64,000 nt of DNA from a virus. The notes below the pieces were generated by a model. That model made no database searches, was not told the DNA's origin, and worked only from the letters and a program-made list of their open reading frames with translations. How positions within the stretch are numbered: position 1 is the stretch's first letter; each line of letters begins with the position of its first letter. Positions 21,326 through 32,140 of the stretch are shown piece after piece. The position numbers and the translations under genes are program-made. The DNA lies in IMG/VR virus record IMGVR_UViG_3300009128_000003, positions 32,001 to 96,000 of that record, one strand, 5' to 3'.

Positions 21326-22471
21326 TCATTTGATGCCAGCTAGCCTCTTCATCCTTTCATTGAAAGGATCCGAGGGCGTGCTCTCTTGACGAGTTGCACG
21401 CAAAACAGAAGTCCGACGACCGATTGCTTCGCTCAGTGATTGTGGGCTTCGCTTAGGCTTAGCCTCCACTGTGCTTTCAAGCGTGTGGTATATTGTCTTC
21501 GCTTCTGCTACTGAACCAGCGTTTGAAATCGCTTCGGCAATCTTAGTTTTCTGCCGCTCATTTAGGGAGGTATTTCTTAGCACACGGTTCGTATATAACA
21601 AGCGAGCGTTAGAAAGATTCACATCTTGTAAATTTTCCTTAAGCTCGTTAAATGCTTGCTTATATTGTGAGTTTTGCTCGTTGAGTTGGTTATTTTCGAA
21701 AACCAACTCTTCTTGAGCCTTCTTCAAATCTTTTAATTCTTCTTCCATATCAGTGGAACGTCGATGGGCTAATGCTTTTTCCATTTCCCACTTCACACTG
21801 TCAGAGGAGCGACCAGCCCAGCCGGCAAGTTCTGCTCCCATATCTACTGTAAGCTTTTCCACGATGGCATCGATGAGTTCGTCGTTTCCAACACCCTCTT
21901 CAAATGCGCCTTTCTGGGCAGCATCGGTGGCGTTGACGGCTGCGGCACTGCCTGCGAGGGCGGCGGCACTATCATCATCGTCATCTTCTTCTTCATCGGC
22001 TTCTTCGCCGGCGAAAGAACCAGAGTCTTCAACTTCTTGAAGCTCCTCTTCTTCCTCTTCAAACAAGGCAGCGAGTTCTTCTTCATTGATCTCCACCTCT
22101 TCTTGCTCTTCTAATTCGTTTTCTAATGCCTTGACAGCTTCTTGTAGTGCATCAAGATCGATGTTTACTGGAACTTCCTCTCCTTCTGTCGGAAGACCGG
22201 GAGGAATTTCCCCTTCCTCCTCATTAAGGTTGTCTGTTGCGGCAAGCGGGATGTTGGCGGCTACTTCTTCTGTGGAACCTGCTGGTTCTCCCCCAAGCGC
22301 TGGCTCTTCTGCTCCTAGATCGGCAGCCAGCTCATCTTGTTCTAAAAGTTGTTCGAGAGTTTCTCGGACTTCGCTCGAATACTTCTCAATGATAGCAGTC
22401 TCGGCGTTTTTCAAGGCGGAATCACGTAGCGCTTTGGCGTCGACGATAGCTTCCTTAAGTAAATTTGACAT
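21326..22471 (-). CDS. Prohead core/scaffold protein (T4 gp22-like)
   Basis: Very acidic coiled coil with many L/I-x-E sites, VNLSNARLLYTN, ends ERMKRLAGIK; directly upstream of MCP. Confidence 0.85.
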   Translation of the reverse strand: MSNLLKEAIVDAKALRDSALKNAETAIIEKYSSEVRETLEQLLEQDELAADLGAEEPALGGEPAGSTEEVAANIPLAATDNLNEEEGEIPPGLPTEGEEVPVNIDLDALQEAVKALENELEEQEEVEINEEELAALFEEEEEELQEVEDSGSFAGEEADEEEDDDDDSAAALAGSAAAVNATDAAQKGAFEEGVGNDELIDAIVEKLTVDMGAELAGWAGRSSDSVKWEMEKALAHRRSTDMEEELKDLKKAQEELVFENNQLNEQNSQYKQAFNELKENLQDVNLSNARLLYTNRVLRNTSLNERQKTKIAEAISNAGSVAEAKTIYHTLESTVEAKPKRSPQSLSEAIGRRTSVLRATRQESTPSDPFNERMKRLAGIK

Positions 22472-22503
22472 TCAGTATGCTCCTAAAAGGCAATTGTTCA
22501 AAA

Positions 22504-22511
22504 TAAATAGT
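22504..22511 (-). promoter_or_regulatory. Putative late promoter motif ACTATTTA for scaffold-MCP unit
   Basis: Intergenic, about 33 nt upstream of the scaffold start. Confidence 0.6.
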
Positions 22512-22587
22512 CAGTAGGGTACTAAAAACCCATTTTTAATGATATGCGCGCGGCGTACTAATTGCCACAGTAGTTTATTCGTCTATA

Positions 22588-29230: not shown

Positions 29231-29237
29231 GATGCTC

Positions 29238-29663
29238 CTACTTCATCGCTTTCCAGACAGCAGAGGCGCCGCCCACTAAAGAACTAATATCAACGCCAGA
29301 ATCGGCTGGGGCCCCCAAATCAACGTTGCCGCCGCCCGGACTACTAGCTTCATACTGGGACATCGGCGCAGTTCCTTCAAACAGATTAACGCCGTTATAT
29401 GCGTCTTGTCCAATAGCTTCCATCATTTTCTTTCGCTGGGCTGCAAGCTGCTTGTTCGTTTCGCGAGTCTTTCGGGCGCGAATCTCTGCCTCTGGCTCCT
29501 GCGGTGTCTGGGGTCTTTGGACACCTTCAACCACAAGACCTCCTTGCATGCCTTTCGCTACCTCTGCTACTACATTGGACAAAAGTCCTTCTTCTATTAA
29601 AAGCTCGTGAATGCACTCTTTGACCATAGGCTTCATTAGCTCTTTAAGATCTTTCTTTTTCAT
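29238..29663 (-). CDS. Hypothetical protein with leader resembling type A tag
   Basis: ATGA overlap with upstream gene; MKKKDLKELMKPMVKECIHELLIEEG. Confidence 0.75.
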   Translation of the reverse strand: MKKKDLKELMKPMVKECIHELLIEEGLLSNVVAEVAKGMQGGLVVEGVQRPQTPQEPEAEIRARKTRETNKQLAAQRKKMMEAIGQDAYNGVNLFEGTAPMSQYEASSPGGGNVDLGAPADSGVDISSLVGGASAVWKAMK

Positions 29664-32140
29664 TTTATTCCTGCTAGCGTCTTCCAACGCTCAATTGTTT
29701 TGGATTCTTTAAGGGTTTTGCCTTCTTCGTAACCTACAGCCTGTTTCATAAACGGCTGGGACGATTTTAAACCACCACTTCGTATGCGTTCTTTAGATCT
29801 CGCGATGTGGGCAGTACGGCGCTTAGCGGCATTGGCGGCGGACTTGTCGCGGTCGGCTTGGGTTCGGCGCTGACCCAAATCGACAACTTCGCCTCCCTTT
29901 GTCTCGGGAGCCTCTTCTTCCGCTGCCTTCACTCGAACTTTTTGTAACAGATCGTTTAACAAGCCTCGGGACTGCTTCTTCTGAAAGACTCTCGCCATTC
30001 TTTCCACTTTCCCTGCTTCTACCTTGTCTCGGGTAGCTAAGCGCTCCCAAGCCTTAAGAATTTGAGTCTTCTTGGCGGTAAGGTAGTTGCTGTCAGCAAT
30101 CTTCCCCACGGCCGATTGGCGATCTCTTTCTCTAAGAAGCCTTTCGGGAAGGAATGGTCCAAAGAAATTTAGGAAGGAATTCAAATCGTCTTCAAACTTC
30201 ATTTTGGAGCCGCGAACTTGCTTGCCCCTGTTGACGTTCTTCCAGCTTCCTTTTAGCTTGTTGGTATTAAAGTCGTCTGAAAGGTAGTATACTTTGCCTT
30301 CTCCGGGGTCCGCCTCTTCTTCGGCTTCGCCTTCTGCGTCTTCTGCGCCTTCCTCGCCGGGTTCGCCTTCTGCGCCGGCGGGGGCTATATCTTCCGCCCC
30401 TTCAGGGGGAGCTTCGCCCGGCGCGGTACCGAGCATTGCGCTGAGATCTCTGAGGGGTTCAATGTACTTATCGCCTAGTTTTTTCAACTCTTCCATTCCG
30501 GGCTTGTCGGCAACCTTGTCATACAGTTCGAGCGCCTTGTTAACACCCTCTTGTACATCTTCGACCGATGCCTCGATGCCTGCTGCCTCTAGAGCATTTA
30601 TGATAGCATCCTTGGCACCTTGGGCGCCGCGGACTTTGTCCATAGCTTTAACTAGAGGTATTAACTTAAGGACCAATGGTCCAAACTTGCCAGCTTTCGC
30701 GGCGATCTTTCCAAAGGGAATGAGGGAAAACAGTGCCAATGCCGCCGATTTCAAATCCCCTTGTGCTATATTAATGAGAGATTCTGCGATAGACGCCGGT
30801 ATATTGGCGCCGGGCACCAGTGACAATACGCTAGCCAAACCTTCGACCGCTTTAACAGCGGGCGTGTTTGCTAAATCTTGAACTTTATCTATAACACTTT
30901 CGTCTTCTCCATCCGTATCGGTGGTGCCCTCTGGGTCGATTGCTGGCTCTTCAACACCGGTACCGATGTCCCAACCGCCTTCGCGCAATTGAGTCTTGCA
31001 ACAATCATAAATGGCTTGTGCAACTTCTTGGTCGGCAAAGATCTTAAAGATGCCAGAAAAGTCAACTGCATGCGACTTAGCCGGCTTTGAGTCACTTCCC
31101 TTAACTTTGCGCCCTTTGCGTGGAGATTTTTCAGGGGTAGTTACGCCGGCGATGTATTCTCGGATAGTGCTGTCTGCATCCATTTGTTTAATGATGCCGG
31201 CACTGACGCTTTGCTTGACCATATAGTCACGCAGTTCTTTATACTTCTCCGGTGCTATTTGATACTCATTCTTTATCGCCGATAAAAAGTATGCTAGTGT
31301 GTAGCCGGGATTGCTGGGCTTTGGCTTGAATTTGATTTTGCTACAGTCGCCGACCACTGCGTCCGGATATTCTTCCACGTCGACGGGGGTCGGCGCCTGA
31401 GTCCCATCTTCTGGCTCTTCCTCTTGACCGGGTGTGCCACCCTGCGGTTGTGGCTGTTGTGGCTCTTGGGGCGCTTGTGGTTCTTGGGGCTTTTGGGGTT
31501 CTTGCTGCTTGGGCTTTGATTTTTTAAACCAGTTGGGAAGGTCGTTCCCTTCTTTGCCGAAGAAGCCGGCACGTGCAAGAATCTTATAGAGATGGTCTTT
31601 GGTCTTTTGTGTAGTGAGCGCAGCGTTGAATACTTTAGCAAGATTTGGGTATTTATTTACGTCCAACTCGCCGTTGGGACCCAACTTGGGCATCCGGCTA
31701 AGAATTACAGATGCCTTGTGAATTGATTGTTCCTCGATTGTATAATTATTTCCTTGAGGGTTTGTAATAAGGTCTTCAAGTTCGTTATATAATACATCGC
31801 GCTTAACTTCTACGTTTAAAATTCGACGGATGTCGTCAATTGCCTTATAAAGAGCAGCTACGTCGTCGGCGTTATAAGTTTCAGGCTCGTTGCCTGCGCC
31901 CTCTTCCTCTCCATCGCCGCCGGCACATTTGTCGCCCGGCTTGCATACCAGATCGCCTGTATATTGATGCTTGTCATAGCTAAGTCCGTGTTTTCCTCCG
32001 GTCTTTCCCCACTTAAGTTTTCCGAAAAACTCATCAAGAGGAACATCTTCTTTGATCTTAGGTTCGACACTCTCGGCTAAAAAGCCTTTCCATGCGTCGC
32101 TGCGCTTTTTAGCGTCTTTAAAACTACTCCAGTCACTCAT
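29660..32140 (-). CDS. Large putative internal head/ejected protein with pre-toxin-like segment
   Basis: N-term DAWKGFLAE; C-term ERWKTLAGIK like the scaffold end; internal LSLVPGA..INIAQGDLKSAALALFSLIPFGK; QEPQ and E-rich linkers. Confidence 0.6.
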   Translation of the reverse strand: MSDWSSFKDAKKRSDAWKGFLAESVEPKIKEDVPLDEFFGKLKWGKTGGKHGLSYDKHQYTGDLVCKPGDKCAGGDGEEEGAGNEPETYNADDVAALYKAIDDIRRILNVEVKRDVLYNELEDLITNPQGNNYTIEEQSIHKASVILSRMPKLGPNGELDVNKYPNLAKVFNAALTTQKTKDHLYKILARAGFFGKEGNDLPNWFKKSKPKQQEPQKPQEPQAPQEPQQPQPQGGTPGQEEEPEDGTQAPTPVDVEEYPDAVVGDCSKIKFKPKPSNPGYTLAYFLSAIKNEYQIAPEKYKELRDYMVKQSVSAGIIKQMDADSTIREYIAGVTTPEKSPRKGRKVKGSDSKPAKSHAVDFSGIFKIFADQEVAQAIYDCCKTQLREGGWDIGTGVEEPAIDPEGTTDTDGEDESVIDKVQDLANTPAVKAVEGLASVLSLVPGANIPASIAESLINIAQGDLKSAALALFSLIPFGKIAAKAGKFGPLVLKLIPLVKAMDKVRGAQGAKDAIINALEAAGIEASVEDVQEGVNKALELYDKVADKPGMEELKKLGDKYIEPLRDLSAMLGTAPGEAPPEGAEDIAPAGAEGEPGEEGAEDAEGEAEEEADPGEGKVYYLSDDFNTNKLKGSWKNVNRGKQVRGSKMKFEDDLNSFLNFFGPFLPERLLRERDRQSAVGKIADSNYLTAKKTQILKAWERLATRDKVEAGKVERMARVFQKKQSRGLLNDLLQKVRVKAAEEEAPETKGGEVVDLGQRRTQADRDKSAANAAKRRTAHIARSKERIRSGGLKSSQPFMKQAVGYEEGKTLKESKTIERWKTLAGIK

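What the first reader, a model, noticed from the sequence alone, without database searches (positions are those of the whole stretch)
21326..32140. Scaffold C-terminal helix copied onto other proteins
SEEN: the scaffold ends FNERMKRLAGIK and the large protein at 29660-32140 ends TIERWKTLAGIK; the 170-aa protein (50502-51014) has TRMKEIAGV after its leader. KNOWN: in P22, the basic C-terminal helical segment of scaffold binds coat protein. INFERENCE: these proteins mimic the scaffold's capsid-binding site, a second loading route independent of the N-terminal leaders.
Basis: partly seen in the sequence, partly recalled or inferred. Interest (0 to 1): 0.7.

Follow-up and report, generated by a model that had tools for sequence, protein, structure and literature searches.

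The report
Scaffold tail reused on a second protein
In this uncultured marine T4-like phage, the head-scaffold protein and a large, highly variable protein encoded just after the head protease end in the same conserved ten-residue peptide, most likely a removable label that docks both inside the young capsid, though binding has not been shown.

Summary
The scaffold (21326-22471, minus strand) and the 826-aa protein (29660-32140, minus strand) share 8 of their last 12 residues and nothing else. Shuffled proteomes never reached this.

- **Conservation in scaffolds:** the tail (pattern R-[MW]-K-x-LAGIK-stop) is near-invariant in about 200 scaffold homologues. It persists in distant cultured relatives (Flavobacterium phage immuto, Microcystis phage Mel-JY01, Rhodothermus phage RM378). 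It is absent from T4 and S-PM2 gp22.
- **Conservation in the second family:** the post-protease gene family keeps the tail, plus an N-terminal leader, on at least three unrelated or mosaic bodies.
- **Selection acts on the peptide:** the two tails differ at synonymous sites.
- **Shape and cut sites:** AlphaFold2 predicts a short terminal helix plus a three-residue hook after a disordered linker. L-x-E protease-type sites lie just upstream.
- **Third protein (170 aa):** the internal match is borderline. Chance probability runs from 0.04 to 0.57 depending on scoring, and it is kept in 4 of 5 close homologues.

MCP binding is inferred by analogy with 80alpha, SaPI1 CpmB and P22; the one complex prediction gave no answer. 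The route is not independent of the leaders, because every complete tail-bearing protein seen also has one. This scan has reported the same tail reuse in at least seven other phage genomes.

The parts
21326..22471 (-). Putative head scaffolding protein (381 aa), immediately upstream of the gp23-like MCP
   Evidence: Position next to the MCP; acidic; almost all helical in the AF2 model; 15 L/I-x-E sites against 9.4 expected; more than 2600 homologues. Homology to S-PM2 gp22 is not significant by hhalign, so the role is inferred.
21329..21364 (-). Scaffold C-terminal tail (last 12 residues): predicted helix 369-378 plus a 3-residue hook
   Evidence: Near-invariant in 120 listed homologues and 80 IMG/VR loci. 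Kept in immuto, Mel-JY01, RM378 and LR756508 scaffolds.
21428..21436 (-). Invariant L-S-E protease-type site, 33 residues before the scaffold C-terminus
   Evidence: L346, S347 and E348 are invariant in alignment A2. T4 gp21 specificity is L/I-x-E (PMC9026906).
29660..32140 (-). 826-aa hypervariable protein encoded directly after the prohead protease; carries an N-terminal leader and the scaffold-type tail
   Evidence: The AF2 model is mostly low-confidence or disordered. No Pfam, PHROG, NCBIfam or PDB relatives.
29663..29698 (-). Tail of the 826-aa protein (last 12 residues); predicted helix 814-823
   Evidence: Invariant in family A1. Codons differ from the scaffold tail at synonymous positions.
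29705..29713 (-). Conserved L-x-E site, 14 residues before the C-terminus of the 826-aa protein
   Evidence: L810 and E812 are invariant in A1. An equivalent [LIV]-x-E lies 5-14 residues upstream of the tail in L065, L037, L045, L079 and L070.
32072..32140 (-). N-terminal leader of the 826-aa protein (residues 1-23), ending in L-A-E
   Evidence: Conserved in A1 and in representatives P0149-P0179.
30371..30952 (-). Inserted helical module (about residues 397-590), absent from the 88%-identical relative L004
   Evidence: There are weak, sub-threshold pre-toxin-TG / MafB leads only.
32133..32759 (-). Prohead protease (Peptidase_S77, T4 gp21 family); overlaps the start of the 826-aa gene
   Evidence: Pfam PF03420 E = 6.7e-35; phrog_207.
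19489..21294 (-). Major capsid protein, T4 gp23 family; the proposed but unproven binding partner
   Evidence: Pfam PF07068 E = 3.3e-72.
50889..50912 (-). Internal tail-like stretch (residues 35-42) of the 170-aa protein 50502-51014; borderline copy

Best explanation
The last ten or so residues of the scaffold form a short amphipathic helix followed by a G-I-K hook, and this is the scaffold's docking peptide in the assembling prohead. The pattern is an acidic residue, then R-[MW]-[KQ]-x-[LI]-A-G-I.

The gene after the prohead protease encodes a long, largely disordered, fast-evolving protein. It carries the same peptide at its C-terminus and a leader at its N-terminus. It is therefore drawn into the prohead through the site the scaffold uses, most likely the inner face or N-arm of the gp23-like MCP.

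After assembly, the S77 protease cuts at the conserved L-x-E sites next to both tags and frees the roughly 790-residue body inside the head. The scaffold, with its many sites, is degraded.

Shown: the shared, conserved, body-independent tail; the adjacent cleavage-type motifs; the predicted helix-plus-hook. Inferred: binding, partner, packaging and cleavage.
For: - Tail identity is beyond chance and confined to the last 10 residues.
- The tail is near-invariant in scaffold homologues. It is retained in scaffolds whose MCPs are only 43-53% identical over the aligned part.
- It is retained on post-protease proteins with at least three unrelated bodies and in 15 of 33 newly fetched library hits (P0148-P0180).
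- Synonymous codon differences show that selection acts on the peptide.
- AF2 predicts a disordered linker, then a helix, then a 3-residue coil in both proteins.
- L-x-E sites are invariant near both tails, and the neighbouring protease is a gp21 homologue.
- The 826-aa protein has no excess of L/I-x-E sites (10 against 9.2 expected), while the scaffold has 15 against 9.4. This fits a cargo trimmed at its ends against a scaffold that is degraded.
- In immuto, the same peptide sits at the N-terminus of two small proteins, directly followed by I-T-E.
- Precedents: the 80alpha scaffold and SaPI1 CpmB share a C-terminal helix-and-hook that contacts the capsid N-arm (PMC5644958). T4 Alt and gp21 are also processed at their C-termini (PMC9026906).
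Against: - There is no experimental or predicted evidence of binding to the MCP or to anything else.
- T4 and S-PM2 gp22 lack this tail, so T4 biology cannot simply be transferred.
- The scaffold assignment is positional and compositional; hhalign to gp22 is not significant.
- The post-protease gene is absent in 6 of 15 relatives and lacks the tail in 3, so its role is dispensable and unknown.
- Always carrying a leader as well raises the question of why a tail would be needed.
Confidence: 0.6

Rival explanations
1. The 826-aa protein is not cargo. It is a second scaffold or core protein, a functional analogue of T4 gp67/gp68 or a CpmB-like size or shape modifier. On this reading it shares the tail because both proteins build the core against the same shell site.
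For: - It occupies the slot that gp22 holds in T4 and S-PM2, directly after the protease.
- It is helical or disordered, with acidic low-complexity stretches.
- CpmB is a precedent for a second protein that uses the scaffold's tail to alter assembly.
Against: - The gene is missing in 6 of 15 relatives and tail-less in 3.
- Bodies are unrelated between lineages.
- There is no enrichment of L/I-x-E sites, unlike the scaffold.
- Length varies from about 350 to 826 aa.
Confidence: 0.2
2. The tail docks to something other than the MCP. Candidates are the tails or coiled coils of other scaffold molecules (co-assembly into the core), the portal, or the protease acting as an exosite.
For: - T4 internal proteins co-purify with gp22, and how proteins are localised in the T4 core is called unresolved.
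- The protease C-terminus carries a conserved amphipathic stretch followed by L-N-E, which loosely resembles the first half of the tail.
Against: In every system where a scaffold C-terminus has been mapped (80alpha, P22) it contacts the coat protein. No data here favour any alternative partner.
Confidence: 0.25
3. The shared C-terminus is a degradation or quality-control signal, read by a host or phage protease, rather than a docking peptide.
For: It is strictly C-terminal in this genome, and short hydrophobic C-terminal tags can act as degrons (general knowledge, not tested here).
Against: - The same peptide occurs at N-termini in immuto, followed by a prohead-protease-type site.
- It sits on the protein that must accumulate to high copy number.
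- It is predicted to be helical, not extended.
Confidence: 0.05

Closest known systems
80alpha scaffolding protein and SaPI1 CpmB C-terminal 'helix-and-hook' (R-I-I-K motif), PMC5644958
   Same: Two otherwise unrelated proteins share the scaffold's last ~16 residues. The element is an amphipathic helix plus a short basic hook at the very C-terminus. In 80alpha it contacts the capsid N-arm, and the two tails are interchangeable.
   Different: - There, the mimic belongs to a satellite that hijacks the phage and changes capsid size. Here, both proteins are encoded by the phage itself.
- Here, the second protein is long, hypervariable and flanked by protease sites.
- The capsid is of the T4 gp23 type.
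- The sequence motif differs.
T4 capsid targeting sequence (CTS) of IPII/IPIII, removed by gp21 (Mullaney & Black 1996, as reviewed in PMC9026906 and PMC9958956)
   Same: A short, portable terminal peptide on variable proteins, lying next to an L/I-x-E site, in a phage with a gp21-type protease. It is presumed to load proteins into the prohead core and then be cut off.
   Different: - The CTS is N-terminal and is not a copy of the scaffold's end.
- T4 gp22 has no LAGI-type tail.
- The tail here is C-terminal and co-occurs with a separate N-terminal leader.
Encapsulin cargo-loading peptides (PMC8229669)
   Same: A C-terminal peptide of about 10 residues, placed after a flexible linker, that binds the luminal face of an HK97-fold shell and is shared by unrelated cargo proteins.
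   Different: Encapsulins have no scaffold, no protease and no DNA. The consensus sequences differ. No homology was tested or is claimed.
Herpesvirus / phage nested protease-scaffold genes, and engineered P22 scaffold-fusion cargo (PMC9962691)
   Same: A second protein enters the procapsid because it carries the scaffold's capsid-binding C-terminus.
   Different: In nested genes the shared end is the same DNA read in frame. Here there are two separate genes with different codons. The P22 fusions are man-made.

Membership tests
Scaffold C-terminal capsid-binding element (80alpha/CpmB helix-and-hook type) | Located at the extreme C-terminus of the scaffolding protein and conserved | tested here: met
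Scaffold C-terminal capsid-binding element (80alpha/CpmB helix-and-hook type) | Short amphipathic helix followed by a few non-helical residues including a basic one | tested here: met
   AF2 gives helix 369-378 then 3 coil residues, with block pLDDT about 79. The same shape appears in the 826-aa protein at low confidence. This is a prediction only.
Scaffold C-terminal capsid-binding element (80alpha/CpmB helix-and-hook type) | Physical contact with the major capsid protein | not testable with these tools
   Needs cryo-EM or a binding assay.
Scaffold C-terminal capsid-binding element (80alpha/CpmB helix-and-hook type) | The same element is present on a second, otherwise unrelated protein | tested here: met
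T4-type capsid targeting sequence (CTS) | N-terminal position, about 10 residues | tested here: not met
   The tail is C-terminal in this genome. N-terminal copies exist in immuto.
T4-type capsid targeting sequence (CTS) | Adjacent L/I-x-E site for a gp21-family protease encoded by the phage | tested here: met
   Motifs are present and conserved, and the protease is present. Cleavage itself was not tested.
Nested protease/scaffold genes sharing one C-terminus | The shared end is encoded by the same DNA, in frame | tested here: not met
   These are two genes 7 kb apart, and their codons differ.
T4 gp22 scaffold family (for the 381-aa protein) | Detectable sequence homology to gp22 | tested here: inconclusive
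   hhalign against S-PM2 gp22 gives E = 0.19 over 14 columns. There is no Pfam or PHROG scaffold hit.
Encapsulin cargo-loading peptide | C-terminal ~10-mer after a flexible linker, on unrelated cargo proteins | tested here: met
   Low-pLDDT linkers precede both tails, and the bodies are unrelated. Binding to the shell lumen was not tested.

The most novel reading that the evidence does not exclude
The scaffold's terminal helix-and-hook is a general, position-independent address code of the far-T4 phage clade. It would work at either protein end, bind a fixed pocket on the gp23-type shell, and be removed by the head protease. Together with the N-terminal leaders it would form a combinatorial loading system for injected proteins. 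On this reading it is the phage counterpart, possibly the ancestor, of encapsulin cargo-loading peptides.
Probability: 0.3. Interest if true: 0.75.

Novelty: new variant of a known kind. Interest (0 to 1): 0.55.

Why it matters
A recent T4 review states that how proteins are localised in the scaffolding core 'remains mysterious' (PMC9958956). A conserved ten-residue peptide shared by the scaffold and by variable proteins gives a concrete, mutable handle on that question. The phage group is very abundant, with more than 2600 scaffold homologues in public data.

If the tail docks to the shell, it explains how large, fast-evolving and probably injected proteins are loaded. It would also give a natural tag for packaging foreign proteins into T4-type capsids.

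The fast-evolving gene after the protease is itself a candidate host-takeover or anti-defence factor.

Tried and rejected
- **Complex prediction.** MCP alignment A3 with scaffold residues 330-381 from A2 gave 'no answer' (ipSAE 0.00, controls not run). This is neither for nor against binding.
- **Structure of the 826-aa protein.** The model had mean pLDDT 46, too poor for a fold search, so none was run.
- **Family and structure searches.** Pfam, PHROGs, NCBIfam and PDB sequence searches of both proteins gave nothing above threshold. The protein atlas gave only viral hypothetical clusters and a weak pre-toxin-TG lead at 0.85 for the middle module, and nothing for the N-domain.
- **Idea that the two proteins are paralogues.** Rejected: only 10 columns align.
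- **Idea of a recent DNA copy or gene conversion.** Rejected: the tails differ at synonymous sites.
- **Idea that the W-[RK]-x-[FY] N-terminal leaders are the same motif as the tail.** A loose regex is enriched (12 matches against 4.4 expected) and hits five termini. Tail PSSMs do not pick up the leaders, so this is left as a weak lead.
- **Idea that the MCP start (M-A-G-I) echoes the tail.** Relatives start M-S-S-I instead, so this is probably coincidence.
- **Viral-contig scan for the 170-aa protein.** It found no relatives.
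Full report
**Context**

The window lies in a 115-kb, single-contig virus record, and all genes discussed are on the minus strand.
- The 601-aa protein at 19489-21294 is a T4 gp23-family major capsid protein (Pfam PF07068, E = 3.3e-72).
- The 208-aa protein at 32133-32759 is a gp21-family prohead protease (PF03420, phrog_207).
- The nearest cultured relatives by MCP are Flavobacterium phage immuto, Microcystis phage Mel-JY01 and Rhodothermus phage RM378, at 43-49% identity.
- The 381-aa protein directly upstream of the MCP (21326-22471) is acidic and almost entirely helical. It is rich in L/I-x-E motifs (15 against 9.4 expected) and has more than 2600 homologues.
- I call this protein the scaffold on those grounds. 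Homology to S-PM2 gp22 is not significant, so the name is an inference.

**The observation**

- Among the 102 ORFs of the genome, this pair shares 8 of its last 12 residues, and the next best pair shares 5. No shuffled proteome out of 500 reached 8.
- BLASTP finds nothing else in common. A profile-profile comparison aligns only the last ten columns.
- The DNA of the two tails differs at the synonymous positions of five codons. The identity is therefore maintained at the peptide level and is not a recent DNA copy.

**Conservation**
- The scaffold tail (D-P-x-x-[ED]-R-M-K-[RK]-LAGIK-stop) is near-invariant in the 120 listed homologues and in 80 IMG/VR loci.
- Far more distant scaffolds keep it. 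Immuto, Mel-JY01, RM378 and a 484-kb uncultured phage all end in a recognisable variant. Mel-JY01 even has the I-L-N-E site upstream, and immuto has the W form seen in the 826-aa protein. T4-type and S-PM2 gp22 end differently.
- The 826-aa protein has few relatives (7 by word search, 35 library representatives). Those relatives keep two things: an N-terminal leader (M-S-D-W-S-S-F ... W-[RK]-x-F-L-x-E) and the tail. The middle varies from about 350 to 826 residues.

**The locus**

I examined 15 related loci that include the protease.
- In six loci, the gene after the protease carries the tail (L004, L065, L037, L045, L079, L070).
- In three loci the gene is present but has no tail.
- In six loci the gene is absent.
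- With the termini removed, the tail-bearing bodies fall into at least three groups with no detectable similarity to each other: the P0125 type, L037, and L079/L070.
- Two of them, L079 and L070, carry a different kind of N-terminal leader.

The tail therefore behaves as a module independent of the body. A DNA pattern scan of five related records, including one complete 203-kb genome, found the tail only on the scaffold and on this gene. The same holds for the whole genome of the window.

In this lineage the tail is not a widely used tag, unlike the N-terminal leaders noted elsewhere in this scan. In the cultured phage immuto, however, two small proteins begin with a copy of the tail directly followed by I-T-E. 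The peptide can therefore also be used at an N-terminus.

**Anatomy**
- AlphaFold2 places a low-confidence linker before each tail. It folds residues 369-378 of the scaffold, and 814-823 of the large protein, as a helix followed by three non-helical residues.
- L-x-E motifs, which match the specificity of T4 gp21 (PMC9026906), are invariant 33 residues before the scaffold end and 14 residues before the end of the large protein. They also close its N-terminal leader.
- The large protein has no excess of such sites (10 against 9.2 expected), whereas the scaffold does.
- This matches the T4 rule that core proteins are chopped up and retained proteins are only trimmed. T4 Alt and gp21 are also trimmed at the C-terminus.

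**The third protein**

The stretch at residues 35-42 of the 170-aa protein is borderline.
- A PSSM from tails alone ranks it fourth and within chance.
- A PSSM from 26 tail variants taken from other genomes, with substitution-aware pseudocounts, ranks it third at 16.3 bits. That score is reached by 3.75% of shuffled proteomes.
- Four of five close homologues keep it and one has lost the R-M-K part. Two homologues that swapped the leader for another type lack it altogether.
- I put it at roughly even odds of being a degenerate copy.

**Mechanism**

The best-supported reading is that the tail is the scaffold's docking peptide in the prohead, and that the post-protease protein uses the same site to be taken in and is then released by the protease.

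The partner is most likely the MCP, by analogy with 80alpha and SaPI1. There, the scaffold and CpmB share a terminal helix-and-hook seen by cryo-EM on the capsid N-arm (PMC5644958). P22 is a second analogy (PMC9962691). No result here shows binding; see Tried and rejected.

Rivals are that the large protein is an auxiliary core or size-modifying protein, or that the tail binds other core components. Tail and leader co-occur on every complete protein seen, so the tail is not an independent route. It looks more like a second anchor.

**Novelty**

Capsid-binding scaffold ends, the T4 CTS and encapsulin loading peptides are all known. I found no paper on a phage's own proteins carrying its scaffold's terminal peptide next to head-protease sites in the T4 lineage. 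This scan has already reported the same phenomenon on at least seven other phage genomes. I rate it a new variant of a known kind, of moderate interest here because only one clear extra carrier exists in this genome.

Noticed in passing
window 28985-29230 (-): An 81-aa gene inside the head module is a ribosomal protein S21 homologue (PF01165, 29.8 bits, above the 27-bit cut-off). Mel-JY01 has an annotated RpsU at the matching position.
   Followed up: partly
window 22588-28946 (-): Seven genes are inserted between the protease block and the scaffold, unlike the T4 order. Several begin M-A-Y-N or M-A-Y-K-F-Q and end in a similar aromatic-rich motif, which suggests a paralogous family of virion (fibre or decoration?) proteins with variable middles across relatives.
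   Followed up: no
proteins P0153, P0155, P0159-P0162, P0166, P0168, P0169, P0177: Relatives of the middle and C-terminal modules of the 826-aa protein end in other conserved terminal motifs. One resembles the N-terminal 'type A' leader but placed at the C-terminus, ending R-G-x-x-G. This hints at further tag types that can sit at either end.
   Followed up: no
window 30371-30952 (-): A module of about 190 residues in the 826-aa protein is an insertion absent from the 88%-identical relative L004, and it is shared with other viral proteins. There are only weak pre-toxin-TG / MafB-like leads (Pfam E = 0.068; atlas 0.85).
   Followed up: partly
L098 and L109 (Flavobacterium phage immuto, MW353176.1 around 25.5 kb and 111.7 kb): Two small proteins start M-K-K-Q-I-L-S-E-Q-F, then a copy of the scaffold tail, then I-T-E. 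This is an N-terminal version of the tag in a cultured phage, which could be tested by virion proteomics.
   Followed up: partly
window 32133-32180 (-), protease C-terminus: The protease ends in a conserved amphipathic stretch (D-R-I-N-R-L-L-N-E ...) that contains an L-N-E site. It loosely resembles the first half of the scaffold tail and may be a C-terminal propeptide like that of T4 gp21.
   Followed up: no
window 21200-21294 (-), MCP N-terminus: The MCP propeptide carries K-W-E-x-T-G-L-L-E-G. This is conserved in all relatives, and T4 gp23 has the similar K-W-K-P-L-L-E-G. Several L-x-E sites follow, so this is the likely maturation-cleavage region.
   Followed up: no
window 29660-29666: The stop codon of the 826-aa gene overlaps the start of the next gene (A-T-G-A), and its own start overlaps the protease gene end by 8 nt. 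This suggests translational coupling across protease, large protein and the following leader-bearing 141-aa protein.
   Followed up: no
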